From an uncultured Candidatus Saccharibacteria bacterium (GTDB taxonomy: Bacteria; Patescibacteriota; Minisyncoccia; Phycocordibacterales; UBA1006): DNA of 53,201 nt. Shown here piece after piece: positions 370 to 14,247 of the stretch. The DNA is taken from contig CAYQCC010000007.1 of NCBI GenBank assembly GCA_964415895.1, positions 1-53,201 on the forward strand. The letters run 5' to 3'. The number at the start of each line of letters is the position of its first letter. The first letter of the stretch is position 1. The position numbers were made by a program, and so were the translations under genes. The notes under the pieces are model-generated. The model did not search any database, was not told the DNA's origin, and saw only the letters and a program-made list of their open reading frames with translations.

Positions 370-1395
370 ATGTCCACCCAAACCTATCAATTTCATATTC
401 ATGGAATGCATTGCAATGCGTGCGTTCTTCTGACGGAAAACGAGTTGAAAGATATTCCTAACATCACTTCTGCAAAAGCAAGTCTGAATAATCATTCAGT
501 CGAGGTAGTCGGGGATTTTGGAGACAAAACTCCTGAGCAGATTGCAGAGGAGCTTACGGTTCCATTGAAACCGCTCGGCTATACGGTATCTGTTGAAAAA
601 CAGCAAAGAAAAGGTAACTGGAGCGAGTTCAAAACAGCAGCTCCTATCGCACTTGCATTTGCAGTCCTGTTTGTGTTCCTTCAAAAGATCGGTATGGTAA
701 ATCTGGTGGACGGAGGAAATGTAAACTACAGTACTGCATTCGTCATTGGTATCATTGCTTCGCTCTCCACTTGCATGGCAGTAGTTGGAGGATTACTTCT
801 TTCCATGTCCGCAACCTTTGCAAAGGAAGGTGACAAGATAAAGCCCCAGCTCATGTTCCACGGTGGTCGCCTTGTTTCTTTCTTCATTCTGGGTGGTGCG
901 ATCGGGGCAATCGGATCGGCATTTACTTTGAACACCTCGGCAACGTTCGTCCTTGGAATGGTGATCGGAATCGTGATGCTCATCTTGGGAATCAATCTAC
1001 TTGATGTGTTCCCTTGGGCAAAGCAATTACAGCCATCTATGCCGAAGTTTATCGGAAAGCGTGCTCATGGAGTTTCAAAATACAATCACACCCTTACACC
1101 ACTTTTGGTGGGAGTACTCACATTCTTTCTACCATGTGGATTTACGCAGTCCATGCAGCTCTATACGCTGACCACAGGGAACTTCCTCACAGGTGGACTG
1201 ACCATGCTTGCGTTTGCACTTGGTACGCTCCCCGTACTTGCTATGATTAGTTTCAGTTCGTTTAGTATTCAGAACAATTCAAAAGCAGGAATATTTTTCA
1301 AGACTGCAGGACTCGTCGTTATCCTGTTTGCACTGTTCAATATTATCAACTCATTGGTTGTGCTCGGTCTTATACCGCCAATATTTAATTTCTAG
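370..1395 (+). CDS. Heavy-metal-associated (HMA) domain fused to DsbD_2 / TauE-SafE-like membrane domain
   Basis: N-terminal GMHCNAC metal-binding motif; multi-TM region with STCMAVVGG and FFLPCGFTQ motifs. Confidence 0.85.
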   Translation: MSTQTYQFHIHGMHCNACVLLTENELKDIPNITSAKASLNNHSVEVVGDFGDKTPEQIAEELTVPLKPLGYTVSVEKQQRKGNWSEFKTAAPIALAFAVLFVFLQKIGMVNLVDGGNVNYSTAFVIGIIASLSTCMAVVGGLLLSMSATFAKEGDKIKPQLMFHGGRLVSFFILGGAIGAIGSAFTLNTSATFVLGMVIGIVMLILGINLLDVFPWAKQLQPSMPKFIGKRAHGVSKYNHTLTPLLVGVLTFFLPCGFTQSMQLYTLTTGNFLTGGLTMLAFALGTLPVLAMISFSSFSIQNNSKAGIFFKTAGLVVILFALFNIINSLVVLGLIPPIFNF

Positions 1396-1408
1396 TATAA
1401 TTAAAACT

Positions 1409-1801
1409 ATGAAGATAATAATTATTTCAATCTTGGTCGCACTAATCCTCGTTGGAGGAGCGTTCATGCTGACAAAAGAAAAAAGTGAACCGAAGGCAGA
1501 TACAGCCCCAGTAAATAATGTGTCCATCATAGATGGCAAGCAAATTATTACTATTACTGCCAAAGGAGGTTATAAACCAACTAATAGTGTTGCGAAAGCA
1601 GGTATCTCAACGATTATTCGTTTTGATACTAGGGGAACATTTGATTGTTCATCATCGGTAAACATCCCAAGTATGAACATTTCAAAAATATTACCACAGA
1701 CAGGATCTACAGATATCGATATTGGGATACCGGGGGTAGATGCGCTCCAAGGAACATGTGGAATGGGGATGTATCCATTTTCGATTACGTTCCAAGAATG
1801 A
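1409..1801 (+). CDS. Cupredoxin-domain protein with N-terminal membrane anchor
   Basis: Start moved to ATG 1409 (MKIIIISIL, hydrophobic anchor); C-terminal CGMGM motif and an upstream Cys (FDCSS). Confidence 0.8.
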   Translation: MKIIIISILVALILVGGAFMLTKEKSEPKADTAPVNNVSIIDGKQIITITAKGGYKPTNSVAKAGISTIIRFDTRGTFDCSSSVNIPSMNISKILPQTGSTDIDIGIPGVDALQGTCGMGMYPFSITFQE

Positions 1802-1901
1802 TTAAGACACTTCCGTCAGGAACGACGGTAATTCTTTCATAAAGAAAATATGATGAGATTCCTCGAGTATTAAGGTTCGAACAGCCCTGAACTGGGCGAG
1901 C
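1802..1901 (-). repeat. att-like site B / relic recombinase tail
   Basis: Plus-strand AGGTTCGAAC..CGAGC, 26 nt from TTCGAA to GAGC; minus frame LAQFRAVRTLILEESHH...VS* open for 32 codons and ending 1 nt from the cupredoxin stop. Confidence 0.6.
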
Positions 1902-1906
1902 TAATC

Positions 1907-1937
1907 AAAAAACACCTGTTTATAGGGGTGTTTTTTT
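1907..1937. terminator. Bidirectional terminator-like hairpin after site B
   Basis: AAAAAACACC-TGTTTATAGG-GGTGTTTTTTT. Confidence 0.7.
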
Positions 1938-1960
1938 ATAAAAGGTATATAATAAACTAT

Positions 1961-3226
1961 ATGTTTGCTTACTTAATTCTTGAGATAGTTACAGGTATTA
2001 TTGGCTTATTAGCATTAATTGTATTAATGGTCCATTTGTATAAAAAACCTACCATTCATAAAATTGTAAAACAGCGAGGGATTTATATTCCGATAATATT
2101 ATTTATTGTTGCAGTTTTTGCAGGGTTAATTGCAAACCGTACCTATCCACCAAATTTTGCAATGCCTGTATTTATGCATTCACATGCACCAGGTGGTGTT
2201 CCTGCATCTATTCCTTTTAATAAAATTATAGATTTTTTTATTCATAAAAATCATTTTGAGAAAGTTGCCGATATTTCAACTGACCCAGCATCTGTACCGT
2301 CAACCCCACAGCTTCCAGATGCAGATGGAATTGTCCGCATTCATTTAACTGCAAAGGAAGTTATTTCAGAAATAGCACCAGGAATTTATTTTAATTATTG
2401 GACATATAATGGACAGGTACCTGGTCCGATGTTAAGAGTACGTGAAGGTGATACAGTCGAGTTATCATTAACGAATGATCCATCAAGTTTGCATCACCAT
2501 AATATTGATTTACATGCCGTTACTGGTCCAGGAGGCGGTGCATCAATTACTGATGTAAATCCAGGGGAGACAAAAACATTCAGATGGAAAGCCTTGAATC
2601 CAGGATTGTACGTGTATCATTGTGCAATGCCAAATGTCAGTACACATAATTCACATGGGCAATATGGTTTAATTATGGTTGATCCAAAAGATTCTACTAT
2701 TGGATTATCCAAAGTAGACCATGAGTTTTATATCATGCAGGGTGAATTATATACTGAAGGGCAATTAGGAAAACGTGGGTTGGTTCCATTTGATTCAGAT
2801 GCATTACTTGCAGGAGATCCAAACTATGTAGTGTTTAACGGTAAAATTGAAAGCGCTCCACGAATACATGCAAAGGTTGGTGATACAGTACGTATGTATG
2901 TTGGTAACGGTGGGGTAAATTTAATTTCATCGTTCCATGTAATTGGTGAAATTTTTGACAAAGTATATCCAGAAGCTGCAATAGGTGTCGGGTCATCGGT
3001 ATTTAAAAATGTACAAACAACTGCAGTATTGCCAGGAGGCGCAACAATAGTTGAATTTACAGTTGATGTACCAGGAAAATTTCTATTAGTAGATCATGCG
3101 CTCGCTCGGATGAATAAAGGGGCTTGGGCGGTTCTGGAGGTAACAGGAGATGAACAACCAAGTATTTTTTCTAAAACCAAATCCTTAATGGAGACTGTTC
3201 CTGCAGAAATGGAACATATGCAATAA
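1961..3226 (+). CDS. nirK: Copper-containing nitrite reductase (AniA-like), N-terminally membrane-anchored
   Basis: HNIDLH, YHC, SSFHVIG and VDH motifs supply the type-1/type-2 Cu ligands and catalytic Asp/His; hydrophobic N-terminus; likely start ATG 1961. Confidence 0.9.
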   Translation: MFAYLILEIVTGIIGLLALIVLMVHLYKKPTIHKIVKQRGIYIPIILFIVAVFAGLIANRTYPPNFAMPVFMHSHAPGGVPASIPFNKIIDFFIHKNHFEKVADISTDPASVPSTPQLPDADGIVRIHLTAKEVISEIAPGIYFNYWTYNGQVPGPMLRVREGDTVELSLTNDPSSLHHHNIDLHAVTGPGGGASITDVNPGETKTFRWKALNPGLYVYHCAMPNVSTHNSHGQYGLIMVDPKDSTIGLSKVDHEFYIMQGELYTEGQLGKRGLVPFDSDALLAGDPNYVVFNGKIESAPRIHAKVGDTVRMYVGNGGVNLISSFHVIGEIFDKVYPEAAIGVGSSVFKNVQTTAVLPGGATIVEFTVDVPGKFLLVDHALARMNKGAWAVLEVTGDEQPSIFSKTKSLMETVPAEMEHMQ

Positions 3227-3261
3227 AAGTATGGTGTATTCTAAAATCATTTAGTTACCAT

Positions 3262-3335
3262 AGTTACCTTACATTACCCTTACTAACCTCTGTATATCTC
3301 TCACACAGGTTCGAAGTGTAACCGATAGGCGGAGC
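3262..3335. repeat. att-like site A (putative attL), encodes the last 21 aa of the recombinase
   Basis: Ungapped direct repeat of 12642-12715; 3314-3335 vs 12694-12715 match at 21/22 nt. Confidence 0.85.
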
Positions 3336-5005
3336 ATAGTAGAAAAAACAGACGAAAACTCGTCTGTTTTTTCGTTAGACGATGTAAACAAAGGAGTTTT
3401 ATTAGGTTCGAACTTTGGATTCTCACTCTTCATTGTAATGAATCCATCCAAGAGTGCTTGAACCGATTTTGTATTGATAATACTAATCATTTCATCATTC
3501 CAGACTAGGTTCGAACGAAGTTTAGTAAGAATACTTCTTTTAGAATTAATCTGACCCTTACGCATAACGAATATAAACTCTTCAGCAAGATTAACTATCT
3601 CATTCGCACGAATAGTCCAATCAAGACTCACAGGCTTCTCTGAGGGCTTGTAGCGGGTCTCCAGGTCCAGTAAGTCAGATTTATATTCGTCATCAGTTAT
3701 CATTTTTTCGGCAAGCATCTCTCGGAGCCGTTTCTTTTTTGATTGATAGTCGGTAGCTTCTTTTTGTAGGATTTCTTCCTTGAAGAGGTTTCTATTAACC
3801 TCTTCATCTCTCATTTCCTTAATATGCTTTCTGCACCAGTCTGCAAGTTCTGAAGAAAGAGGTATTTTTTCTCCAACTTCTTTTATTAGGTAATCGGTTA
3901 GTCTTTCATCGCTTACAGATTTGTATTTGAGACCATTCTTCTTTTTCGAATTATTGTAATAATACGAATAATCAAGATACTTAGGGTTTTTCATCTCATC
4001 TATAGGTGTATTACATTGGGGGCAGTGTGTTTTATCCCTATGTGCAAATTTTTTCTTACAATCACAGATGACTTGGTATTTCTTATCAAGACCAATAAAA
4101 TCATTCTCTGGAGAAATTACAAAACCAGAAAATGTAGCCTCGTGTTTCTGAGTCTTCGGGATATTTCTTTTGCCGAGAATCATTTTGATTTCATTATGCT
4201 CATCTTCGGTAATAAGCCTAGGTAAGCTTTTGTCTAGCTCATATCTTTCACCCCCATAAAAGAAGAAGCCTGCATAGGTAGAATCTTTCAAAATTTCATA
4301 TATTCGTGAGGACTGTATTAGTTTGCCTCCAATCTTTTTTCGCTTTACAGTAGTCAATTTAAGCTCTTCTACGGCATACTTATAGAGCTTGCCAGCAGAA
4401 AATTCTTTAGTAAGAAACATCTTTAGAAGAATTTTAACTTTTTCTAACGTTGGCTCATCCACTAGCCATTTTCTATTTCCTTTCTCTTCCGTTTTATCAT
4501 TCAAGAAGCCTAGTGTTGCTACTCCGTGGGGAACACCAATAGAAGCTTTTTTAGCCTGACCTCGTTTTACATTTACTGAAAGGTCTTTAACAAATTGTTT
4601 GCCTTGACCAAACTCTACTGCTAGAACAATCACATTGTCCCAAGGGTAATAAACCTTGTCGTGGGTAATAATAGCTTTTAATACTCCTGAACTCAGGAGG
4701 TCGATAATCTTTCCACCCTCAGTCATATTTCTTGCCAGTCGGTCTGGCTTCCAACAAACTATTGTATCTACCTGACCTTTTTCAATCATCTGTATAAGGC
4801 TGGTAAACCCAGGACGAGCAAATTCTTTCTTTGCAGATTTTGATTCTTCAAATGTCTCAATAAAATCAGGAAGCTTATAAAAATCCACTATTCGCTTCGC
4901 TTCATCTTTTTGAGATTCAATAGAAAGCATCTGCCTATCTTCAGCCTCAGATGACTTTCTGTTGTAACTAGCAGGTTTTAGTTTTGTGAAATCTATATTA
5001 TTCAT
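3269..5005 (-). CDS. Large serine recombinase (resolvase + recombinase + Zn-ribbon/coiled-coil)
   Basis: YNRKSS catalytic Ser motif, DRLARN motif, CDC...CPQC Zn ribbon, coiled-coil region. Confidence 0.92.
   Translation of the reverse strand: MNNIDFTKLKPASYNRKSSEAEDRQMLSIESQKDEAKRIVDFYKLPDFIETFEESKSAKKEFARPGFTSLIQMIEKGQVDTIVCWKPDRLARNMTEGGKIIDLLSSGVLKAIITHDKVYYPWDNVIVLAVEFGQGKQFVKDLSVNVKRGQAKKASIGVPHGVATLGFLNDKTEEKGNRKWLVDEPTLEKVKILLKMFLTKEFSAGKLYKYAVEELKLTTVKRKKIGGKLIQSSRIYEILKDSTYAGFFFYGGERYELDKSLPRLITEDEHNEIKMILGKRNIPKTQKHEATFSGFVISPENDFIGLDKKYQVICDCKKKFAHRDKTHCPQCNTPIDEMKNPKYLDYSYYYNNSKKKNGLKYKSVSDERLTDYLIKEVGEKIPLSSELADWCRKHIKEMRDEEVNRNLFKEEILQKEATDYQSKKKRLREMLAEKMITDDEYKSDLLDLETRYKPSEKPVSLDWTIRANEIVNLAEEFIFVMRKGQINSKRSILTKLRSNLVWNDEMISIINTKSVQALLDGFITMKSENPKFEPNKTPLFTSSNEKTDEFSSVFSTMLRLSVTLRTCVRDIQRLVRVM
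3343..3372. terminator. Terminator-like hairpin inside the recombinase 3' coding region
   Basis: AAAAAACAGACG-AAAACT-CGTCTGTTTTTT, perfect 12-bp stem. Confidence 0.65.
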
Positions 5006-5140
5006 AACAAAAATGAGGTAACGACATTACTTTAGTTGCTACACCAAGCGTGTCATTACCTCGTTTTTATTCACAAAAACACCCATACTAATAATAATTT
5101 CACAGTGTGTTTTTATGGACATATCGCCTGGTGTAGCTCT
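5006..5140 (-). promoter_or_regulatory. Structured leader of the recombinase gene (attenuator-like)
   Basis: Long hairpin ending in CTCATTTTTGTT directly before the ATG; 9-nt complementarity between 5038-5046 and 5129-5137. Confidence 0.45.
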
Positions 5141-5499
5141 TACATTTTATCAAGATAAGGTCTTAATAACAATTAAGCTAACTTGATACAAAACAGTAAA
5201 CTTTATTTTTGGTGATAGGAAGACTCCATAGCCCCCTTACCCCCAAGCTTGGAAGTATTCGTGAAGAAACTTATTTCCGCTGTATCTCGGAGTTTCTTAG
5301 GTCCCACTCTAAGAGCTTTAATCTTAGCTCCCGATATTCCGTCATTCGCCAGGACCACCGTTCACGGCAACGAATGACTTAGAAGAAGTTTACTTCATTT
5401 TCGTATGATGAGGTTTCCTCCATCCTATGAATTAAGCTGGCATCCAAGAGAGGCTCATAGGTTCGCCCACCTTTCTCTCAGGTTTGAGTCATTGCTGAC

Positions 5500-5535
5500 T
5501 CAGAACACTACCCACTGCAATGGGTAGTGTTCTGA
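5500..5535. repeat. Perfect 15-bp inverted repeat
   Basis: TCAGAACACTACCCA-CTGCAA-TGGGTAGTGTTCTGA, immediately downstream of the 55-aa ORF. Confidence 0.85.
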
Positions 5536-5536
5536 A

Positions 5537-5704
5537 TTAATAATGCTTCTGTGGTTTTAGTTTCAAACTTTGGACCATAATTTCAAGAAAAAATTGTCCC
5601 AGATTGTTAATATCCTCGTCGCTTAACTTGCACTCAAAATCTTCACCGTGCGTTTTACGGAGAATTTCTCGAAGTTCAGTTAGTGCTAGTTTGCTGAGGA
5701 CCAT
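5537..5704 (-). CDS. Small 55-aa protein (not in the ORF track)
   Basis: Manual translation MVLSKLALTELREILRKTHGEDFECKLSDEDINNLGQFFLEIMVQSLKLKPQKHY*; co-oriented upstream of the LSR. Confidence 0.65.
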   Translation of the reverse strand: MVLSKLALTELREILRKTHGEDFECKLSDEDINNLGQFFLEIMVQSLKLKPQKHY

Positions 5705-5787
5705 ATTTAGGGGTCCTCTTGTTGCAAAAAAGCAGTCTAGAGGACTGCTTCTATCTTGCTACTTATTCAAATTTACCTCAGCCTGGT

Positions 5788-6627
5788 TTAAGGAATTTGC
5801 TTAATTAATCCAGTTTTAATTTGAGTCTTATTATCCTTGGCTTTTTTAATAATCGACTTAATATAATTTCCTGAATAGGGTTTTCCATCGGGTTTTTTTA
5901 GATTAAACCTGTGGAAAATGTAATTCGCAATTAATTCATCCTTTGCTCTCTCCAAGGCTTTTCTTTTGCCATTAATAGTAAACTTTTCCTTATATTCAGA
6001 TGAAAATCTTAAAGCAAAGGCACTTCTAATTTCTTCAGAAGAGAATGTATCTAGAACTCGAATCCACAATTCAAGCCCGCCAGTATCTGTTTTGGTTGCG
6101 CGTTTTTTTACCTTAGGAACACCTATTCCAATCTCTTTAAATTTTCTCAAAACATCATTTCCTGGAGTTCTTAAGAAATCAAAAATCTGTTGGTTGTCAG
6201 CCCCTGGGATAATTTTCAAATATAGGGCATCAGTGTCTGTTGTATCTTTAGTCCAAAATACATTTCCAAAAGGAATATTTTTATAAGTATCTTCTTGGAT
6301 ATCACCGAAAATAAATAATTCCGAAATCACAGGCTCCCACTCAGGTCGCAGTATTAAGTATTTATATTCAGGGTATTTCTTCGTTAGGGCCTTACGGAAA
6401 CCAATAAAAGCTTTAGACAAGATAGGTTTTTCATTGATAATTTCTTTAACAAAGCTATTTCTCAATACTAAGTTTGTCCAGTCGTATTTATCAATGAGAT
6501 ATTCAAAATCCTGATTATCAATACCGCCAGTTTTTCTGTACTTTACAGCTATTTTCTCGGTCTCTGCACTTGCTATAGTTTCAATGGCAAGATTCTTCCT
6601 ATTGTTGTTTGGTGTAGCATTTCTCAT
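5788..6627 (-). CDS. Hypothetical protein, possible C-terminal DNA-binding helix region
   Basis: 279-aa ORF; basic helical C-terminus; no family recognised. Confidence 0.65.
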   Translation of the reverse strand: MRNATPNNNRKNLAIETIASAETEKIAVKYRKTGGIDNQDFEYLIDKYDWTNLVLRNSFVKEIINEKPILSKAFIGFRKALTKKYPEYKYLILRPEWEPVISELFIFGDIQEDTYKNIPFGNVFWTKDTTDTDALYLKIIPGADNQQIFDFLRTPGNDVLRKFKEIGIGVPKVKKRATKTDTGGLELWIRVLDTFSSEEIRSAFALRFSSEYKEKFTINGKRKALERAKDELIANYIFHRFNLKKPDGKPYSGNYIKSIIKKAKDNKTQIKTGLIKQIP

Positions 6628-6740
6628 CTTCCAATCTTACCAATTTCAAGGAAAAATGATAGAATTAGCATTAACAATTCAATATTGCCGACCTAACCCT
6701 CATCGCTTGCGGTGAGATATGGTCAAATCCGCAAAAGTAT

Positions 6741-6840
6741 AAAGAACCCCTAGTCAGGGTCTGACTTTTGCAGTCCCATCGGGAAACTGGTGGTGTTGCT
6801 CTCTTCGGAGGGCGTACGCTTGGCTAGGGGCTTTTTGTAT
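6741..6840 (+). ncRNA. Putative C4/CI-like antisense RNA (three-way junction)
   Basis: Outer stem CCCCTAGTCA/TGGCTAGGGG, inner hairpin 6771-6789, C(UUCG)G hairpin 6798-6813; ACTTTTGC (6764-6771) is complementary to flanking GCAAAAGT copies. Confidence 0.55.
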
Positions 6841-6888
6841 GGCTAATTCTGGCAAGCGCATTATCAAAAAACCCGCAAAAGTAAAACT

Positions 6889-7110
6889 ATGGAATATTTT
6901 ATACAGGTGGCGATTGTTGCCTTTCTCGTCTGGGAATTTAATAGACGAATTAATAAGCTAGAGCGTCTGGTTTTAAGTCTGGAATTGCGACTTGGCGATA
7001 AGGTAAATAAGCCCAATGATTTTGATAAGTGGGCTGAAGAGCATAAGAAAAAACCTTTTCTATCTAAAGAAGAGTTGGAAAAAGAAAAGCACGAAGCTGG
7101 GGAAATTTAG
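6889..7110 (+). CDS. Small protein with N-terminal TM helix and charged coiled-coil
   Basis: 73 aa; hydrophobic YFIQVAIVAFLVW followed by a charged helix. Confidence 0.65.
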   Translation: MEYFIQVAIVAFLVWEFNRRINKLERLVLSLELRLGDKVNKPNDFDKWAEEHKKKPFLSKEELEKEKHEAGEI

Positions 7111-7505
7111 TCTTGCTGAGAGAGTTTTTCTACCACTCTTCGAGCAATTTCATCGTGATTTAAATCGAAACCAAAAGGAGGAAAATCGTAAAGCTGGGAA
7201 CTATCAAGTCTTGGGTCCGTAGAGAAATCCTTTTTGAATTTTCTCTCAAGAATCCACGCTGTAGCTTTCCAGTCTTTTTCACCAGCTTTCTCAATTTTCT
7301 GTATAAGCTTCTGTTTATATTCAATCACTTTTTGACCCATTTGTTCTGAAAATTCTGAATTTGTACGCTTCCATCCGCACAGGGTATCTTCTGAGATGCC
7401 AGCCAGCATTGAGGCATCTCTTTGAGTCATTCCGTTACCTAGAGCCTCTAGGATTATTGTGACCCTTTCGGGGGTCATTTTGTATGGTTTAGAAGGTTTT
7501 GCCAT
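7107..7505 (-). CDS. Phage terminase small subunit-like HTH protein
   Basis: N-terminal HTH (QRDASMLAGISEDTLCGW) followed by DWKATAWILERKF, a pattern I associate with putative phage TerS proteins. Confidence 0.55.
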   Translation of the reverse strand: MAKPSKPYKMTPERVTIILEALGNGMTQRDASMLAGISEDTLCGWKRTNSEFSEQMGQKVIEYKQKLIQKIEKAGEKDWKATAWILERKFKKDFSTDPRLDSSQLYDFPPFGFDLNHDEIARRVVEKLSQQD

Positions 7506-7584
7506 AGGAAATCATAGGTTGATTTGCTATTGCAGTAGCCTAATTATTATATCAAAAAATGGGTGAAAATGGTAAAATCCACTT

Positions 7585-10500
7585 ATGCACGGGCTACACC
7601 AAGGATACTCTTATCAAGACTTATTATCTGCTTTTTTAATATCAGAAAATCTGCATAAAAAGGATTTTAAAATAGCGATAGAGCAACAAGATTCTATACA
7701 AGACAAGTTTGATGACATTGTAGTTTTTTATGATGGCAGAAAATCTAAATTCCAAGTAAAACACACGTCAGCAAATAATTCAGTTGCAAAGAAAGATTTT
7801 ATAAATAAATCTAGCGACCTTAATTTAGCTGAATTAGCCAAGTCTTTTCTTGATGATAAAAAAACGACTTATATAATTGCCACAAATAGGAATGTTGAAT
7901 CTGACAGTTTCTTTAGCAATCAGGGTGACTCAGGAATATTTTCACTTAAAAATGAATCTTTTCAAATTAGTGGAACTGCTTCTCATAAAAGTTTTACAAA
8001 GAAACTTTTTATTGAATCGTCACTACCTGGAGCTTCCTTTGACCTGAGTAAGCCTGGGAGTCTTGAAAAAGAATTATTGGAATCTTTGCGTACCCAAGTA
8101 GGCATCGGTCAGTATCCAAATAATCAAGTTTCAGAGAGGGATGTTGCTGGTCGTTTAATACTACTAGCTTCTCAATTAAGAAGTACTGGCAAGGGAAAGT
8201 TTTTTGACAGAGATTATATTTTCAAGTATATAAATCTTAATTTTGAATACGGTCATATTGTACAAAATTTCCCATTCATTTCTACAGAGTATAGGCTATA
8301 TAGGACAGAGGTCGTAACAAAAATCCAAGGTCTTTTGTCGGTACATAAATATGCAATTCTTCAAGGTGCGCCTGGTGGTGGAAAATCTCACGTATTTGAT
8401 GACTTGTTTCAAAAGTATAAAGATGAAAAGGTTACAGTTGTCCGTCATTTTTGCTATTTGGAGCCAACAGACCGCCTGGCTCAAGAAAGAATTGTTGTAG
8501 ATGCGATGTATGGTAACTTTCTACATCAACTTGAAAGAAGTGAGCCTAAAATAGCTGAGGAGTTAAAACCCTATTTTTCAGCGACTAAATCAAATCTAGA
8601 AAAGATGCTAATTAAGTTAGCCGAAGCAGGAAAAAAGACTGTTTTGATGGTGGATGGATTAGACCATTTGAATCGAGTAGTTGCTCAGAATAGACTCTCT
8701 GAAGATTTGGTCCAAAGTTTTATTTCTGACCTGTTGGATTTAAAGCTTCCTGAAAATTGTTCCATCTTTATCGCCTCTCAGCCAAGTCTTGAATTGAATC
8801 AAATAATAGAGCATAGAGATGTTGGGGTATACACACTTCTTCCTTGGAGTGAAAAAATGGTTGAGGAATTTTTGAAAAAACATAATGACCATTTGCCGTC
8901 CGAAAGAAAACTTCTCGTAGATAAGGAAATAATAAAGCTTTTATTGCAAAAAACCGAAGGTAATCCTTTGTATCTAACATATGTTCTAAAAGAGGTAATT
9001 AGTTCAAGTAGTGAATCAGATATTCCATCTTTCCTTGAAAAACTACCCCAGCTCAGCAGTGATTTAAATAACTATTATAGATATTTAACAAAAACATCAA
9101 GTGTCTCAGATTTTGCTGTGATGCAAACCTTGGCGTTGCTCGATTTTAGTGTGTCGTCAGAAGAGATAAAAGAAATGTTTCCTCCAATCCAAAAGCCAGT
9201 TATTGAGGCAACAATTAAAAAAATAAAACCAATATTGAAATCAGGGATAGTACACGGAGGTATAAGAATTTATCACGAAAGTTTTCGCCGTTTTATAATT
9301 GAGGAAAGCCATAAGAACAAACAGCAAGATAGTGAGCTATATAAACACATAACAGATTGGCTTGATAAGAAAGGTTTTTATGTCTCCCAAAGAACATACA
9401 GGTATTTAATTCCTTATCTCATTAGGTCGGGCGAAGAAGATAAGGTTTATTCTCTTTTACCAAAAGATTTCATATCGCAAAGTTTGTACTTCTTTCATTC
9501 CCCCGAGAGTATTACTAGCAACCTAAATAGAATTGCGGACTTTGCAGGACTGAAACAAAGATGGGATGTGTACTGTAAGGCTGTTGAATTAAAAAGGGCT
9601 TTACATACTTATACATACGAAAGGGCGGAATCAACAGATGATGTTTATTATCAAGCGATTTTAGACGTGCAGGGCGCGGATATGTTTTGCGAGAGATTAA
9701 TGTTTGATGGAAAGCCAGTTTTTTCTAAACTAGGAGGCATATTAATGTGTCAAAAGGCAGAACATAGTGGAGGAAACCCGCCGTGGGATTTTTATGATGT
9801 TCAAGGAATTTCGATGTCTGTTGGTAGTCCTGCGCAGATTTACCATTTTCAGGAAGTTGAATCAGCTAATTTTCTAAGTTCAATTCGAAAGGCATCAGTT
9901 AAATATGCTATTAGGGTAATGTGGAGATTAATGATGCGAAACAGATTCTTGAATACGGAACAACGTCAAATCAATTGGCTTCTGAACGAATTTGATTTTG
10001 TATTTGGTGTTTCAGCCAACTATAAGGAATTAATTACTCTTCCTATGGCTCGAAAAAAGAAGGCGTGTTTACACTTAGCAGTAGCAAAATACTTGTATAA
10101 GGATGGAAAAAAGAAAGAAGCCAGTCAAATAAGTACAGGTGTATTAAAGACAACAAAAGATAGTAACCAGATTCTTGAAAGCCTAAAACTGGATGGTAAA
10201 ATTGCCAGCCCTGTTTTAATTGGTGATATATCAAAATTAACAGCCTCGATTTTCGGTTTTCAGCATCTATATGACGACAAAGAAGTTCCTGTATTTAAGG
10301 AATGGTATGAGGCTTTACAAATTTTGTCCCACATTAAGCGAGATGAAGTAAAAAATGCAAGAAAATTGATAAATAGAATTGATGGATGGTATCGTGCGTG
10401 GCTCTTGTTTCTTGTCGATTTATCTCTGTTAGAAGCCGAGAATAGTTCGGTTGTAAGGAAAGAAAAAGCTTTCGAGATTATGCTATCTGAACTTGTTAAA

Positions 10501-12234
10501 TATGCAGCCCCTTTCACTGGTACTCCAAGGGCAATGGACCTTTATTCAATTCGGGAATTTTGCACGGATTCTTTTCGTAGAGTATTGATACTTGGAAAGG
10601 ACTTTTCTAATTATGAATTCATATTAAATTCTCTAGGGACAATAAGCTCCGAAACTACTTCTTATCTACAAGGCTCAAGCGATGGTCCGCTAGATGGTGA
10701 AAAATTTAATACACTACTCAAAGAAATTTATTTGTTGTTAGATGAGTCTAAAAGAAAAGTGGTATTGAAAAGATTAAAAGAGAATGTATATAACGGTTTT
10801 GCATCTTCACATTATTATGACTCTTCTTCATTTGAACATTTAAAGTTATCAAGCGTACTTTCTCAAGCGGGAAAAACTAAGGACTCGAAAACAGAGCTCT
10901 TGATGGGCTGTGTCCATCTAGTTGCATACGGACATAGGAAAGATTCTACTCTGTTTGAAATAATCGAACCCATAGGTTTTATTGCTAAGAAAGATTTAGG
11001 CTTTGCAGCTAAAGCTCTATTGAAAACCTATCCCTTGGCTGAGACAGTCTGGAGATATACAGATGGTAGTACTACAAAATGGAGTCTTACTTACTGGATA
11101 GAATCTTTAATTGCCTCAAATGTTAATATGGCTGTTCAGGTAATGACGGAGCTAATAATTAAAGACCCTGGTAGAGATTGGCGGGTAGAGTTAGGCACTG
11201 AGCATCTTTGTAAAAAGTTGGTTGAAGAGAAAGTGTCTATTGCAATAGTGGCAGACCTCTACGAGACCATATTTAGATTAAAGGATACAAGGATTAATGT
11301 TTCAGTGGGATTAGAAATTGCGCAACTCTTAATAGTTTCGGGGAAATATGAACGAGCGCAAAAGATTTTTGACCATATAGCCTATAACCTTTACCACGTT
11401 TCAGTTTTTGAATATGTATCTGAGAAGGAAAATTTCGAAAAGATTCTTTCTTTTGCAAAAAAATACAAATTAAAACTCAAGGACTATCATAAGAAGAATT
11501 TTGAAGCGAATAGGGATAAAACTGCAATGAAAAGTCCGCTTGCCGATATTCCAAAGACTAAAGAGGTGATTGAAAAGTTTAAGTTTAAAGGTCTCGATGC
11601 AGAGGAGATGCAAAGGTTGCTGGATGAAAATCCTAGAGGGCAATTTCTTTATTCTCAAAATGTGCAGAATCTTGGAGAGGCATTGTCTCTAATTGCTAAA
11701 GATAAGCCAGAAAAGAGTCAGAATATTGTACTTTCGTTGGTAAGAACAGGTTTCTATAAGGACCAAGATATTAAAGGATTAATTGCTCTCAGAGAAATCT
11801 TTATCAAAAATGGACAGAAAGAATTGGCTTCATTTGTTTCAATGCTAGGTTTAGTATACGCGCGTGGTAGTGGTGGATGGCACAGCTTGGCTGACAGTCA
11901 ATATAACTATCTAGGTTCTGATGCTTTTAAGTTATCAAAAAAGACAGCGGAAAAGACTCTCTCAAGTGAAATGTCTTATATTTTTTCCAAGGATGGATAT
12001 TTTAGTGGGCCAGTACGACATCTAGTAGAATTTTTCTCACAGGCATCCCAGGTTAGATTGGCTGAAAATATATGGAATGAGGCTTATGATGTTATAAAGT
12101 TTCGATTGCCAACTCCAATAGAACTGGATGAAATGCTTGAAAAAGAAACTCCTAGTCTCACATATAATCTCAGGAAACCAATAAATACCGCCCTTAAAGA
12201 GCTTATAAAAGAGCGACTCAAGATTACTGGTTAG
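7585..12234 (+). CDS. PD-(D/E)xK nuclease-STAND NTPase, Avs/AVAST-like antiphage protein
   Basis: N-terminal GYSYQD..DKFDDIVV..FQVK nuclease motif; Walker A GAPGGGKS, Walker B VLMVDGLDH, STAND GNPLYL; long helical C-terminal region. Confidence 0.8.
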   Translation: MHGLHQGYSYQDLLSAFLISENLHKKDFKIAIEQQDSIQDKFDDIVVFYDGRKSKFQVKHTSANNSVAKKDFINKSSDLNLAELAKSFLDDKKTTYIIATNRNVESDSFFSNQGDSGIFSLKNESFQISGTASHKSFTKKLFIESSLPGASFDLSKPGSLEKELLESLRTQVGIGQYPNNQVSERDVAGRLILLASQLRSTGKGKFFDRDYIFKYINLNFEYGHIVQNFPFISTEYRLYRTEVVTKIQGLLSVHKYAILQGAPGGGKSHVFDDLFQKYKDEKVTVVRHFCYLEPTDRLAQERIVVDAMYGNFLHQLERSEPKIAEELKPYFSATKSNLEKMLIKLAEAGKKTVLMVDGLDHLNRVVAQNRLSEDLVQSFISDLLDLKLPENCSIFIASQPSLELNQIIEHRDVGVYTLLPWSEKMVEEFLKKHNDHLPSERKLLVDKEIIKLLLQKTEGNPLYLTYVLKEVISSSSESDIPSFLEKLPQLSSDLNNYYRYLTKTSSVSDFAVMQTLALLDFSVSSEEIKEMFPPIQKPVIEATIKKIKPILKSGIVHGGIRIYHESFRRFIIEESHKNKQQDSELYKHITDWLDKKGFYVSQRTYRYLIPYLIRSGEEDKVYSLLPKDFISQSLYFFHSPESITSNLNRIADFAGLKQRWDVYCKAVELKRALHTYTYERAESTDDVYYQAILDVQGADMFCERLMFDGKPVFSKLGGILMCQKAEHSGGNPPWDFYDVQGISMSVGSPAQIYHFQEVESANFLSSIRKASVKYAIRVMWRLMMRNRFLNTEQRQINWLLNEFDFVFGVSANYKELITLPMARKKKACLHLAVAKYLYKDGKKKEASQISTGVLKTTKDSNQILESLKLDGKIASPVLIGDISKLTASIFGFQHLYDDKEVPVFKEWYEALQILSHIKRDEVKNARKLINRIDGWYRAWLLFLVDLSLLEAENSSVVRKEKAFEIMLSELVKYAAPFTGTPRAMDLYSIREFCTDSFRRVLILGKDFSNYEFILNSLGTISSETTSYLQGSSDGPLDGEKFNTLLKEIYLLLDESKRKVVLKRLKENVYNGFASSHYYDSSSFEHLKLSSVLSQAGKTKDSKTELLMGCVHLVAYGHRKDSTLFEIIEPIGFIAKKDLGFAAKALLKTYPLAETVWRYTDGSTTKWSLTYWIESLIASNVNMAVQVMTELIIKDPGRDWRVELGTEHLCKKLVEEKVSIAIVADLYETIFRLKDTRINVSVGLEIAQLLIVSGKYERAQKIFDHIAYNLYHVSVFEYVSEKENFEKILSFAKKYKLKLKDYHKKNFEANRDKTAMKSPLADIPKTKEVIEKFKFKGLDAEEMQRLLDENPRGQFLYSQNVQNLGEALSLIAKDKPEKSQNIVLSLVRTGFYKDQDIKGLIALREIFIKNGQKELASFVSMLGLVYARGSGGWHSLADSQYNYLGSDAFKLSKKTAEKTLSSEMSYIFSKDGYFSGPVRHLVEFFSQASQVRLAENIWNEAYDVIKFRLPTPIELDEMLEKETPSLTYNLRKPINTALKELIKERLKITG

Positions 12235-12307
12235 GACTATCTATCGCTAGAGGAGCTTGTTGCTCGTCGATTATTGCTTTTCGAACATCATCCCAGGTGC
12301 GGAGCCA
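12224..12307 (-). repeat. att-like site D / relic recombinase tail
   Basis: TTCGAAC..GGAGC with 26-nt span; minus frame WLRTWDDVRKAIIDEQQAPLAIDSPNQ*. Confidence 0.7.
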
Positions 12308-12311
12308 AGCT

Positions 12312-12342
12312 AAAAGACACCTAATTCACATAGGTGTTTTTT
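12312..12342. terminator. Terminator-like hairpin after site D
   Basis: AAAAGACACCTA-ATTCACA-TAGGTGTTTTTT. Confidence 0.7.
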
Positions 12343-12378
12343 GTTACCGTTGGTAGGCAATCGAACATGTGGTAAAAT

Positions 12379-12624
12379 GTGGATATGAATATGAAATTCA
12401 AATCTCTAATTACTGGTCTTTTAATTTTATCGCCTATGTCCGTCTTTGCGCAAAATCCTGGATTCGGCGCAGAACCAACTCCATTTTTTGAGATGCTATT
12501 TATCAAATCATATTGTACAACACCTTTTGAATGTATACTTAATAATTATATTTTAAATCCATTAATAATATTACCTGTGTTTATAGTCATTGGGGTAGTT
12601 ATTTATAAAAAAATGAAAAAATAA
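12379..12624 (+). CDS. Small membrane protein (signal peptide plus C-terminal TM helix)
   Basis: 81 aa; signal-like N-terminus ending VFA, C-terminal TM with KKMKK tail; upstream TGGTAAAAT extended -10. Confidence 0.65.
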   Translation: MDMNMKFKSLITGLLILSPMSVFAQNPGFGAEPTPFFEMLFIKSYCTTPFECILNNYILNPLIILPVFIVIGVVIYKKMKK

Positions 12625-12641
12625 ATTGAGTTTAATTATTC

Positions 12642-12715
12642 AGTTACCTTATATTACGCTCATCAATCTCTGTATTTCCAATGTATAGATTCTAAGTGTA
12701 ACCGATATGCGGAGC
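12642..12715. repeat. att-like site A' (putative attR), alternative recombinase tail
   Basis: Minus frame LRISVTLRIYTLEIQRLMSVI*, same length as and homologous to the LSR's real tail LRLSVTLRTCVRDIQRLVRVM*. Confidence 0.85.
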
Positions 12716-12794
12716 CCTTGAAAAATGCCTTTATATGGGGTATTTTTTGTTTATCTAAATAGGGTTTAGAACTCAAATCTGTTAAAATGATGCC

Positions 12795-13652
12795 ATGTCT
12801 GAATATCAACCAAAAAATAAGTCCTTTGAGCAATATATACAATTAGGCTACGAGTTTGCTTCTGGGAAAAAATTGTCTGAAAATGAGATGGTTCTTTTAG
12901 AAAAAATATCCGATATAGATACTAGTATTATCAAAATTGATGATATTCTTGACCACGAAGAATACCGAAATAATCGCAAAGCAATTCACCTTATTGATGG
13001 GATAGAAAAGACGATCATAAATGCCAAGCTCGATGAAATTAATGGTGTTCAAGCACTTACTGATTTAATTGAGTTTAGAAAATGCTTTCCTCTTTTCAGT
13101 TACGAAATACTTAAAGTATTTAATAATGACTATATGCGAGGAATATATGAAGGGCAAAAAATTGATAAGGAGTTGGAAGAAATAGAAAATATAACACCAG
13201 AAATGATCCATAAGTATTTTTTAATGACCAAAAAGTTCACGGGAGGTCATATAAGATATGGATTAGAAATCGGGCAACTATTAGGCGGTAAAATCCCTGA
13301 TAAAAGCGTTAGTGAGATTGCCGAAAATTTAGGCATTAATCGACAGATTGTAGATGATTTCGAAGATTATTTTAAAGCCCATCATTATCCATTCGGAGAT
13401 ATTAAAAGGGGTGCAAAAAGACTTCCTGAGATATTATTTACCTTGAAAGGTGGTAGTAGAGAAACTGTTCTAGAGCTTATTACGAAGAAAGATTTTTCAG
13501 GAATAGTAAAACTTGTTTTAAATGAGGAGGTTAGAAAATCGCTCTATGATTATTGTAAAACGAATATAGAGCAATGCGAGCAAATTACAACTGATTTTGA
13601 TTGGGCAAAGATTTCAGTTGATATTGAACAAATACTAAGAAAAGAAATTTAA
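12795..13652 (+). CDS. Polyprenyl synthetase-family protein (divergent)
   Basis: First Asp-rich motif DDILD..R, GQKID, second motif QIVDDFED. Confidence 0.75.
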   Translation: MSEYQPKNKSFEQYIQLGYEFASGKKLSENEMVLLEKISDIDTSIIKIDDILDHEEYRNNRKAIHLIDGIEKTIINAKLDEINGVQALTDLIEFRKCFPLFSYEILKVFNNDYMRGIYEGQKIDKELEEIENITPEMIHKYFLMTKKFTGGHIRYGLEIGQLLGGKIPDKSVSEIAENLGINRQIVDDFEDYFKAHHYPFGDIKRGAKRLPEILFTLKGGSRETVLELITKKDFSGIVKLVLNEEVRKSLYDYCKTNIEQCEQITTDFDWAKISVDIEQILRKEI

Positions 13653-13731
13653 ATTTAAAATTTCACCTAATTCGAGCTCGCTTTTAATCTGAACCCAGTT
13701 AAGGATTCTGAACTTGTCCACGAGAGGGAGT
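13635..13731 (-). repeat. att-like site C / relic recombinase tail
   Basis: TTCTGAAC..GGAGT with 26-nt span; minus frame LPLVDKFRILNWVQIKSELE... open for 31 codons; 16-bp hairpin follows at 13750-13786. Confidence 0.65.
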
Positions 13732-13853
13732 CAACCATTGACATATGATAAAAGGACAGTATTATGCTAAATAATATTGTTCTTTTGCTTTGCGTTTAAT
13801 TGGTTTTCAGAGAAGATCCTGTCTTTTGTGATAGCCAATTAAATACTTACAAA

Positions 13854-14202: not shown

Positions 14203-14247
14203 TCATTTACTCAAAATTTTCGATCGAACATTTCCCATGTTTGGAGC
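14203..14247 (-). repeat. att-like site E (degenerate, 1-nt deletion)
   Basis: ATCGAAC..GGAGC with 25-nt span; restoring 1 nt gives LQTWE(N)VRSKILSK*, resembling site D; imperfect hairpin follows at 14254-14282. Confidence 0.55.

What the first reader, a model, noticed from the sequence alone, without database searches (positions are those of the whole stretch)
3262..12715. 9,380-bp element whose integration or excision swaps the recombinase C-terminus
Seen: 3261-3335 and 12641-12715 align without gaps (57/75 identical by manual count; last 22 nt 21/22). The LSR reads through the left copy to end in LRLSVTLRTCVRDIQRLVRVM*. The right copy encodes LRISVTLRIYTLEIQRLMSVI*, same length with the stop in register. 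Inference: the excised circle would make an LSR with the right-hand tail and the integrated form uses the chromosomal tail, so integration state changes the protein. This could act as a directionality or stability switch, analogous to integrase/repressor systems where attP lies inside a gene.
Basis: partly seen in the sequence, partly recalled or inferred. Interest (0 to 1): 0.8.

Follow-up and report, generated by a model that had tools for sequence, protein, structure and literature searches.

The report
Serine integrase with a borrowed tail
The repeat is real, but its two copies are the end-pieces of two neighbouring gene cassettes, not the two ends of the recombinase's own element; the recombinase gene has no stop codon of its own, so its last amino acids come from whatever DNA lies next to it.

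Summary
Positions 3262-3335 and 12642-12715 match at 57 of 74 positions without gaps, and both read as same-length tails in the recombinase frame.

- **The repeat ("X") is a multi-copy attachment-site arm.** It mimics the 3' end of tRNA-Asn and closes recombinase-less cassettes stacked beside tRNA-Asn in Patescibacteria.
- **The two copies belong to neighbouring cassettes.** The left copy ends the resident nirK cassette. The right copy ends a separate 411-bp cassette that encodes an 81-aa protein.
- **The recombinase's own unit is 3336-12305 (8,970 bp).** It ends in a different arm, "D", at 12267-12305.
  - An 83%-identical relative shows tRNA-Asn|recombinase...D|flank.
  - A 7.77-kb circular relative shows D joined to the recombinase's 3' end.
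The reading frame crosses the crossover point, so the tail depends on the neighbour. Among 120 homologs the tail is 1-2 or 11 aa next to tRNA-Asn and 7-34 aa next to an element arm (13-26 aa for D-type).

The tail follows a low-confidence linker and varies freely, so a functional switch is unproven. No circle or empty-site reads were found for this element.

The parts
1863..1901 (+). 'Y' arm: a P-type attachment arm (GGTTCGAA-N13-GGCGAGC) that closes the copper-resistance cassette. It is followed at 1902-1937 by TAATC plus a terminator hairpin, the head of the nirK cassette.
   Evidence: Geometry search and arm profile. The same TAATC-plus-terminator follows tRNA-Asn in L006 and X in L007.
1902..3335 (+). 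nirK cassette: head (5 nt plus terminator), promoter, a copper nitrite reductase-like gene (ORF 1928-3226) and the X arm.
   Evidence: Pfam Cu-oxidase domains. 91% identical to L023 6467-7734. nirK plus X occurs without the LSR in other strains.
3262..3335 (+). Left repeat, 'X' arm of the nirK cassette: a tRNA-Asn 3'-end mimic ending in GCGGAGC. On the minus strand it supplies the last 21 codons and the stop of the LSR.
3331..3335 (.). Shared core GGAGC holding the inferred crossover. It is the junction between resident DNA and the LSR unit.
   Evidence: Relatives diverge exactly here. The position of the crossover dinucleotide within the core is inferred from LI integrase geometry.
3336..3373 (+). 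P' arm of the LSR unit: ATAGTAG plus a terminator hairpin (3342-3373). It lies inside the codons ...EKTDEFSSVFSTM of the LSR.
   Evidence: Fold. The hairpin is conserved with six different stems and is always more stable on the tRNA-sense strand.
3269..5005 (-). Large serine recombinase ORF as it stands in the window (578 aa). Codons 1-556 and two bases of codon 557 lie in the unit; the rest is read from the X arm.
3336..12305 (.). The LSR's own mobile unit (8,970 bp): P' arm, LSR, a 279-aa ORF, LOOT RNA, a TerS-like HTH gene, an Avs1b-like STAND gene and the D arm.
   Evidence: Boundaries set by comparison with L030 (attL/attR) and the circle L028/L029. Cargo.
12267..12305 (+). 'D' arm: the LSR unit's own P-type arm (cgattattgcttTTCGAACATCATCCCAGGTGCGGAGC).
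   Evidence: Best hit of the arm profile, E 4e-8. Near-identical to the attR arm of L030 and to the attP arms of L025, L026 and L028. D-type tails occur in 9 LSR homologs.
12306..12715 (+). Separate 411-bp cassette: head (CAAGCT, terminator, promoter; 12306-12378), an 81-aa membrane ORF (12379-12624) and the right repeat, the X' arm (12642-12715).
   Evidence: An 84%-identical homolog lies in L023 directly behind its nirK cassette; no LSR was found in that locus.
12716..12748 (+). Right flank: CCTT plus a terminator hairpin (12720-12748), the head of the next unit (polyprenyl synthase gene, 12795-13652).

Best explanation
The window holds a stack of cassettes of the kind found beside tRNA-Asn in Patescibacteria.

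**Cassette layout.** Each unit starts with 5-7 nt plus an intrinsic terminator hairpin (the right or P' arm). It ends with a roughly 40-90-nt left (P) arm that copies features of the tRNA-Asn 3' end: a TTCGAA T-loop motif and a GCGGAGC acceptor end. In the arm the TTCGAA sits 5 bp further from the junction than in the tRNA. That is the attP-versus-attB geometry known for large serine integrases.

The two 74-nt copies are two paralogous X-type arms. One closes the resident nirK cassette and the other closes an 81-aa cassette.

**The LSR unit.** The unit that carries the LSR lies between them, at 3336-12305, and ends in its own D-type arm.

**Why the tail varies.** The LSR gene has no stop codon before the crossover. 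Its last codons before the junction also form the P' half-site and a terminator. After insertion, that terminator ends transcription coming from tRNA-Asn or from the upstream cassette. Translation therefore runs into whichever left arm is adjacent:
- tRNA-Asn gives 1-2 aa, or 11 aa in one tRNA variant.
- The unit's own D arm, in the circle, would give 25 aa (a 583-aa protein).
- The nirK cassette's X arm, the present state, gives 20 aa.

**Shown:** the junction positions, the arm geometry, attL/attR in an 83%-identical relative, a circular relative carrying D|P', and the census of tails.

**Inferred:**
- the exact crossover dinucleotide;
- that stacking arose by repeated insertion at tRNA-Asn, with attL still serving as a target;
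- that the cargo cassettes are moved in trans;
- that the tail is mostly a tolerated by-product and not a switch.
For: 1. LSR relatives overlap an antisense tRNA-Asn by 13 nt, and their similarity to this LSR stops at GCTCCGC.
2. L006 reads tRNA-Asn|TAATC-terminator-CsoR. L007 and L013 have 99.7% identical downstream DNA, but an extra cassette ending in X lies between the tRNA and TAATC.
3. X copies close recombinase-less cassettes in L013, L020-L024 and L006-L010. No LSR was found in those loci.
4. TTCGAA lies 28 nt from the junction in the X, Y and D arms and 23 nt in tRNA-Asn. All long tails have R8 followed by T or K at position 9. This matches the 5-bp ZD-motif shift of LI integrase (PMC3783163).
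5. L030 (LSR 83% identical) reads tRNA-Asn|ATAGTAG-hairpin-LSR ... D arm|flank.
6. L028 and L029 are 100% identical circular permutations from two samples, about 7.77 kb, with a D arm joined to the LSR 3' end.
7. Census of 120 homologs: 68 tails of 2 aa or fewer, 11 antisense-tRNA tails, 27 long tails including 9 of D type. Only this protein has an X tail.
8. The hairpin is kept through compensatory changes. It is more stable on the tRNA-sense strand (-11.7 to -15.1 kcal/mol) than on the LSR-sense strand (-5.8 to -14.8).
9. The AF2 model is a full large serine integrase. Residues 534-561 have pLDDT below 50 and the tail scores about 40-57.
Against: - No circle or empty-site contig for this particular unit was found in eight runs. 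Those are assemblies, which drop rare forms.
- No recombinase specific for X-type arms was identified. X and D differ in the 13 nt between the motif and the core.
- Canonical serine integrases do not use attL as a target, so the stacking route is an assumption.
- In X, codons 13-17 vary at all five third positions, mostly synonymously (p about 0.02, post hoc). This hints at some coding constraint on the tail.
Confidence: 0.8

Rival explanations
1. One 9,380-bp element (3336-12715) is bounded by attL and attR, the two 74-nt copies. The left copy plus the right flank form the chromosomal attB. The exchange of the X and X' tails acts as a directionality or stability switch.
For: The repeat is real and both copies keep the frame and the stop in register. 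The break point at 3335/3336 is correct. In an array of like junctions a two-cassette circle is conceivable.
Against: - An internal D arm at 12305 matches the attR and attP arms of relatives.
- The 81-aa cassette with its X occurs in L023, where no LSR was found.
- X arms are spread over many LSR-less cassettes.
- The family's attB is tRNA-Asn.
- The two tails are alike, so this swap changes little.
- No junction reads were found.
Confidence: 0.07
2. A family-level state switch. The free circle makes a long-tailed integrase (D-type or other P-arm tail). The copy integrated at tRNA-Asn makes a tail-less one. The tail tunes activity, directionality or half-life. This is compatible with the anatomy above and differs only in giving the tail a function.
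For: - The ORF crosses attP in every member examined.
- Recurrent tail families exist: xTWD[DN]VR.. and PLLDxFRTANW..ELQN.
- There is period-3 variation in X codons 13-17.
- Precedents exist among tyrosine recombinases: SSV-type integrases (PMC7253208) and Mx8 IntP (my own recollection, not checked here).
Against: - Tails next to tRNA-Asn are 1-2 or 11 aa, depending only on the tRNA's T stem.
- D-type tails vary from 13 to 26 aa, with stops at different places.
- The conserved part (TWDDVR) coincides with the DNA half-site the enzyme must bind.
- Overall variation by codon position in X is flat: 6/6/8.
- The tail follows a low-confidence linker.
Confidence: 0.12
3. X is a small RNA or a 3'-UTR element with its own terminator and has nothing to do with recombination. 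The LSR element landed beside one copy by chance.
For: X is about 90 nt, conserved, multi-copy, intergenic and usually followed by a terminator.
Against: - X alone folds no better than shuffles (z -0.10 and -1.18), and it has no Rfam or tRNA hit.
- Flanks break exactly at GGAGC|, and X replaces tRNA-Asn upstream of identical DNA.
- Its geometry is shared with proven attP arms.
- The terminators belong to the next cassette's head.
Confidence: 0.03

Closest known systems
Staphylococcal cassette chromosome (SCC/SCCmec) composite islands moved by the CcrAB/CcrC large serine recombinases (my own knowledge)
   Same: Large serine recombinases insert at the 3' end of a conserved gene. Repeated insertions build tandem stacks. 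Recombinase-less units (psi-SCC) sit in the stack, and a short site recurs at every joint.
   Different: The target here is tRNA-Asn, not rlmH. Here the recombinase's own gene, not the target gene, crosses the joint. The arms are tRNA mimics with a 5-bp offset, not repeats of the target core. Each unit also brings a replacement terminator.
SSV-type archaeal tyrosine integrases (attP inside the integrase ORF; PMC7253208) and Myxococcus phage Mx8 IntP, whose C-terminus changes on integration into a tRNA gene (my own recollection)
   Same: The recombination site lies inside the recombinase's reading frame, so integration changes the protein that is encoded. The target is a tRNA gene.
   Different: Those are tyrosine recombinases. 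SSV integration splits the gene into two large parts and inactivates it. Here only a short tail after the folded domains is exchanged, and the enzyme is a serine recombinase.
Phage-type large serine integrases (Listeria A118/LI, phiC31, Bxb1, SPbeta)
   Same: The domain architecture matches, by Foldseek against full-length structures. The sites are short, and the distal motif lies 5 bp further out in attP than in attB (PMC3783163).
   Different: I know of no described case where attP overlaps the 3' end of the integrase gene. Stacks of recombinase-less cassettes are not a feature of those phages.
Tycheposons of Prochlorococcus (bioRxiv 10.1101/2020.12.28.424599)
   Same: Cargo elements insert at tRNA genes. 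New arrivals push older ones further in, and attachment-site remnants are scattered through the island. Cargo includes defence and metal or nutrient genes.
   Different: 910 of the 937 integrase-carrying elements in that study use tyrosine recombinases, and partial tRNA copies mark the joints. Here the enzyme is an LSR, the arms are offset mimics, and many units are single genes without a recombinase.
Integrons
   Same: The array consists of mostly single-gene, co-oriented cassettes, each ending in a recombination site and docked at one fixed position.
   Different: There is no IntI tyrosine recombinase and no folded single-stranded attC. The cassettes carry their own promoters and terminators, and the docking site is a tRNA gene.
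Tn4451/Tn4453 TnpX (my own knowledge)
   Same: In an LSR element, the joint of the circular form changes how the recombinase gene is expressed.
   Different: There the joint creates a promoter. Here the joint supplies the end of the coding sequence.

Membership tests
Large serine recombinase (serine integrase) | N-terminal resolvase-type catalytic domain with the nucleophilic serine | tested here: met
   Pfam PF00239, E 2.3e-15. R16 and S18 are invariant in 49 homologs. Catalytic-domain matches to 3g13, TnpX and TP901-1.
Large serine recombinase (serine integrase) | Recombinase domain plus a zinc-ribbon domain with an embedded coiled coil | tested here: met
   The AF2 model (pLDDT 78.7) has long helices at 385-483 between strands. 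C314, C316, C328 and C331 are invariant. Foldseek gives full-length hits to 9dxd (E 8e-17), phiC31, Bxb1 and 4kis.
Large serine recombinase (serine integrase) | Short attP and attB sites with a shared core, and the distal (ZD) motif 5 bp further out in attP | tested here: met
   On the left arms, TTCGAA is 28 nt from the junction in X, Y and D and 23 nt in tRNA-Asn. GGAGC is shared. The right arms gave no clear symmetric motif.
Large serine recombinase (serine integrase) | Catalyses attP x attB unidirectionally; excision needs a directionality factor | not testable with these tools
   No biochemistry was possible and no RDF candidate was identified.
Integron | IntI-type tyrosine recombinase next to attI | tested here: not met
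   The only recombinase among the ORFs scanned in 1-13.7 kb is the LSR.
Integron | attC sites that fold as imperfect hairpins | tested here: not met
   X arms fold no better than shuffles.
SCC-type composite island | Insertion at the 3' end of rlmH by Ccr recombinases | tested here: not met
   The target is tRNA-Asn. Relatedness to Ccr was not tested.
SCC-type composite island | Tandem stacks that include recombinase-less units bounded by the same site | tested here: met
   L013, L022 and L023 and the window.
SSV-type 'attP inside the integrase gene' | Recombination site within the recombinase ORF | tested here: met
   The ORF crosses the junction in the window, in L001, L002, L004, L005 and L030, and in the circle L028.
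SSV-type 'attP inside the integrase gene' | Tyrosine recombinase, with the gene split into two non-functional parts on integration | tested here: not met
   This is a serine recombinase. Only the part after residue 557 is exchanged.

The most novel reading that the evidence does not exclude
Patescibacteria run an integron-like gene-capture platform with a large serine recombinase. tRNA-Asn is the docking site, and offset tRNA-mimic arms mark every cassette. The recombinase's form is set by topology. The circle encodes a long-tailed enzyme read through its own attP arm. The copy docked at the tRNA encodes a tail-less one. A copy buried in the stack, as here, wears the tail of whichever cassette arrived next. 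In this reading the tail tunes activity or stability, so position in the stack controls mobility.
Probability: 0.12. Interest if true: 0.85.

Novelty: new variant of a known kind. Interest (0 to 1): 0.6.

Why it matters
Serine integrases are major genome-engineering tools, and their sites are normally treated as separate from the gene. Here one short stretch of DNA does several jobs. It is the end of the enzyme's reading frame and half of its recombination site. It also looks like a replacement terminator for the tRNA gene it lands beside.

This arrangement explains why the protein ends differently in different genomes. It also gives a simple rule for finding the attP, attB, attL and attR sites of hundreds of uncultured-bacterial integrases from sequence alone. 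And it shows how ultra-small bacteria that lack classical integrons can stack defence and metal-resistance genes at one tRNA gene.

Whether the exchanged tail regulates the enzyme can be tested directly with four constructs.

Tried and rejected
- **X as a tRNA, tmRNA or known RNA.** ARAGORN and Rfam found nothing at the repeat. Hand folding into a cloverleaf failed, and fold z-scores were insignificant.
- **Runs holding 42% of the words of 2900-3700.** I first guessed they carried the element in another context. Laying them showed the opposite: they hold nirK plus X without the LSR.
- **Circle or empty-site junctions.** I looked in eight runs; none were found. One apparent 8,975-nt "skip" in X4 is an X|AAGCT joint from another, low-depth organism, with 2 mismatches in 48 nt.
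- **A long direct repeat of tRNA-Asn at the far end of relatives' elements.** None was found, as expected for serine recombinases.
- **Coding constraint on the X tail.** The frame is open in 15 of 15 unique copies, but the other frames are nearly as open. The codon-position counts are flat at 6/6/8.
- **A clean empty site via polyprenyl synthase homologs.** Their contexts are unrelated. L023 is mosaic and not a clean empty site.
- **A symmetric motif in the right arms.** Hand inspection was inconclusive.
Full report
**Observation.** The two stretches 3262-3335 and 12642-12715 align without gaps at 57 of 74 positions, 9,380 bp apart. The last 22 nt match at 21 of 22. A 26-mer from the repeat with up to three mismatches occurs only at these two places in the window, against 0.00 expected from shuffles. 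The minus-strand ORF 3269-5005 encodes a 578-aa protein ending LRLSVTLRTCVRDIQRLVRVM*. The right copy reads LRISVTLRIYTLEIQRLMSVI* in the same frame, with the stop in register.

**The protein.**
- It has a resolvase catalytic domain (Pfam PF00239, E 2.3e-15) and a weak Recombinase-domain match. It also matches phage integrase phrog_95.
- R16, S18 and four cysteines (314, 316, 328, 331) are invariant across 49 homologs.
- An AlphaFold model built from that alignment (mean pLDDT 78.7) shows a catalytic domain, a recombinase domain and a zinc ribbon with a long coiled coil.
- Foldseek aligns the model over its full length to solved large serine integrases: 9dxd at E 8e-17, then phiC31, Bxb1 and the Listeria LI integrase 4kis. 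It is a large serine recombinase (LSR).
- Residues 534-561 have pLDDT below 50 and the last 20 residues score about 40-57. The exchanged tail therefore hangs on a low-confidence linker after the last folded element.

**Relatives show where the element ends.**
- Five genome loci from Patescibacteria-type MAGs encode relatives whose similarity stops at residue 557-559.
- In four of them the LSR's last 13 nt, including the stop, overlap an antisense tRNA-Asn(GTT) gene. The common sequence ends at GCTCCGC, which is the reverse complement of the tRNA's ...GCGGAGC 3' end.
- In the window the same position is followed not by a tRNA (none was found in 53 kb) but by the 74-nt repeat.

**What the repeat is.**
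- An exact search for its 3' 26 nt found further copies in genome and metagenome contigs, often several per contig. I call it X.
- In wastewater and sludge runs the last 30 nt reach 170-300x word depth with many different flanks.
- All copies share about 85-90 nt and diverge exactly after GGAGC.
- The clearest comparison is L006 against L007/L013. Downstream DNA (TAATC, a terminator, then a CsoR-CopA operon) is 99.7% identical over 1.2 kb. Upstream of TAATC stands tRNA-Asn in L006 and X in L007/L013.
- L013, from a 230-kb contig, shows the whole arrangement: tRNA-Asn|AAGCT-terminator-promoter-400-aa gene-X|TAATC-terminator-Cu operon-arm|...117 aa-X|...176 aa-X|...250 aa-X|...nirK.
- So X is the terminal arm of cassettes stacked behind tRNA-Asn. 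Each cassette begins with 5-7 nt plus a terminator hairpin. No LSR gene was found in these loci.

**Geometry.**
- In X, and in the variants I call Y, D and Z, the motif TTCGAA lies 28 nt from the junction when counted from GGTTCGAA. In tRNA-Asn it lies 23 nt away.
- A distal motif placed 5 bp further out in attP than in attB is what Rutherford et al. showed for the zinc-ribbon motif of LI integrase (PMC3783163).
- The arms are therefore P-type (element-side) half-sites that imitate the tRNA, which is the B-type half-site.

**The LSR's own unit.**
- The window has four sites of exact geometry on the plus strand. Their junctions fall after 1901 (Y), 3335 (X), 12305 (D) and 12715 (X').
- Three lines of evidence show that D, not X', is the LSR's arm.
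  - L030 carries an LSR 83% identical to this one, in the canonical layout tRNA-Asn...GGGGGAGC|ATAGTAG-hairpin-LSR ... Abi, type III R-M ... cgattattgctttCCGAACATTGTCCCAGGTGCGGAGC|flank. Its arm is almost the same as window 12267-12305.
  - L028 and L029 come from two samples and are 100% identical circular permutations of a molecule of about 7.77 kb. L028 has a 23-nt terminal overlap. In them a D-type arm is joined directly to ATAGTAG-hairpin and the LSR's 3' end, which is an attP in the free form. That LSR ends RTWDDVRLAILQSK*.
  - Among the 120 best homologs, D-type tails (xTWD[DN]VR...) are the commonest long tail, with 9 proteins. An X-type tail occurs only in this protein.
- The right copy X' belongs to a 411-bp cassette (head, 81-aa gene, X'). 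Its 84%-identical homolog sits in L023 directly behind that locus's nirK cassette, and no LSR was found there.
- The left copy is linked to nirK in strains that lack this LSR at that place.
- The mobile unit is therefore 3336-12305 (8,970 bp).

**The tail.**
- The LSR has no stop codon before the junction in any member examined.
- The census of 120 homologs, all at least 55% identical, gives:
  - 68 that end 2 aa or fewer past the conserved ...FSxxL. Here the stop is the TAG of the tRNA's T stem.
  - 11 that read QDSNLRPIA*-type tails. These lie next to a tRNA-Asn variant without that TAG, and the stop falls in the anticodon loop.
  - 27 with long arm-encoded tails of 7-34 aa.
  - 14 that were not classifiable by my motif.
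It does not hold in the specific form proposed.

**Is the tail functional?**
- Against a function:
  - Integrated tails are 1-2 or 11 aa, depending only on the tRNA sequence.
  - D-type tails differ in length, and their conserved part coincides with the DNA half-site.
  - Variation by codon position in 15 unique X copies is flat at 6/6/8.
  - The other frames of X are almost as open.
  - The tail follows a low-confidence linker.
- For a function:
  - In X codons 13-17, all five third positions vary, mostly synonymously (about p 0.02, post hoc).
  - Recurrent tail families exist.
- I put a real regulatory role at about 12%.

**The hairpin.**
- The 30 nt before the junction (3342-3373) form a perfect hairpin flanked by A and T runs. 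They lie inside the codons EKTDEFSSVFS.
- Across nine LSR loci the stem sequence changes (six versions) but pairing is kept.
- It is always more stable on the tRNA-sense strand (-11.7 to -15.1 kcal/mol) than on the LSR-sense strand (-5.8 to -14.8). The difference arises because G·U pairs on one strand become A·C mismatches on the other.
- I infer that it is the terminator the incoming unit supplies for tRNA-Asn, or for the cassette now upstream. All cargo cassettes start with an equivalent hairpin.

**How the present arrangement arose (inferred).**
- If attL (tRNA-Asn|P') can still serve as a target, each new unit inserts next to the tRNA and pushes older ones outward.
- The L006 versus L013 pair fits this, because the extra cassette is tRNA-proximal.
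- On that model the LSR unit arrived before the nirK and copper cassettes and now reads into the nirK cassette's X arm.
- Canonical serine integrases do not use attL, so this step needs a test.
- Which enzyme moves X-type cassettes is unknown.

**Direct evidence for activity of this unit is lacking.** Contigs of eight runs show the integrated form as continuous: depth in X1 is about 55 on the left, 40 over the unit and 34 on the right. There is no circle or empty-site junction. Assemblies drop rare variants, so this is not evidence of absence.

**Comparison with known systems.**
- The closest analogues for the stack are SCC/SCCmec composite islands (my own knowledge) and tycheposons.
- For a recombination site inside the recombinase's own ORF, the closest are SSV-type archaeal integrases (PMC7253208) and phage Mx8 (my own recollection). 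Both are tyrosine recombinases.
- Full-text searches found no description of a serine integrase whose ORF crosses attP, and none of such arrays in Patescibacteria.
- Other agents of this scan have reached similar readings in other genomes. Those are unchecked AI notes and not independent evidence.

**Limits.** The genome's own tRNA-Asn locus and the total number of arms could not be examined.

Noticed in passing
window 6690-6813 (+): Rfam LOOT RNA (RF03000; 51.1 bits against a gathering score of 46.4) lies inside the LSR unit, between the 279-aa ORF and the TerS-like gene.
   Followed up: no
window 7107-7505 (-) and 7585-12234 (+): A TerS-like HTH protein (phrog_4102, E 8e-20) is divergently paired with a 1549-aa NACHT/STAND protein. 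The STAND NTPase region matches PADLOC Avs1b (E 4e-20). This is a defence gene beside a terminase-like gene on a mobile unit.
   Followed up: partly
window 13718-13745 and 14213-14247: Weaker arm-like sites follow the polyprenyl synthase gene (..TTCTGAACTTGTCCACGAGAGGGAGT) and the 117-aa gene (..CGAACATTTCCCATGTTTGGAGC, profile E 0.24). The stack may therefore continue to about 14.3 kb. Polyprenyl synthase homologs sit directly behind tRNA-Ser (L017) or tRNA-Thr (L019) in other genomes.
   Followed up: partly
cassette heads, e.g. window 12343-12378; L013 6566-6600: The cassette promoter GTTACCGTTGGTAGGTAATCGAACCTGTGGTAGAAT contains TCGAACCTGTG, an inverted copy of the arm's CACAGGTTCGA. GGTTCGAAC also recurs twice in the LSR 3' coding region (about 3405 and 3507). 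I cannot say whether this is a binding motif or a coincidence.
   Followed up: no
L002 11560-11850: The 619-aa LSR of L002 has its C-terminal motif twice (..SIFSVV.. then about 50 aa, including ELRTSE, then ..SIFSTLLRG*). It looks as if a roughly 170-nt empty arm-plus-head module sits between the LSR and tRNA-Asn and is read through.
   Followed up: no
L028/L029: A plasmid-like element of about 7.77 kb, circular by permutation across two samples, carries AAA_25 ATPase and DUF5659 genes and a D-tailed LSR. It is a free form of this element family.
   Followed up: yes
window 3251-3280: The 5' end of X carries a tandem GTTACC-ATA-GTTACC. This 30-mer also occurs at another locus in run X1, with a different left flank at depth 4.9. 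Its role is unknown, and it lies well beyond the reach of an LSR half-site.
   Followed up: no
window 370-1801, L006, L013: The copper cassette (CsoR, DUF305, CopA, HMA-DsbD, cupredoxin) is shared between genomes but closed by different arm types: Y in the window, Z in L013. In L006 a 178-aa gene and an X arm follow the cupredoxin gene. This shows arm exchange or mosaic cassettes.
   Followed up: partly
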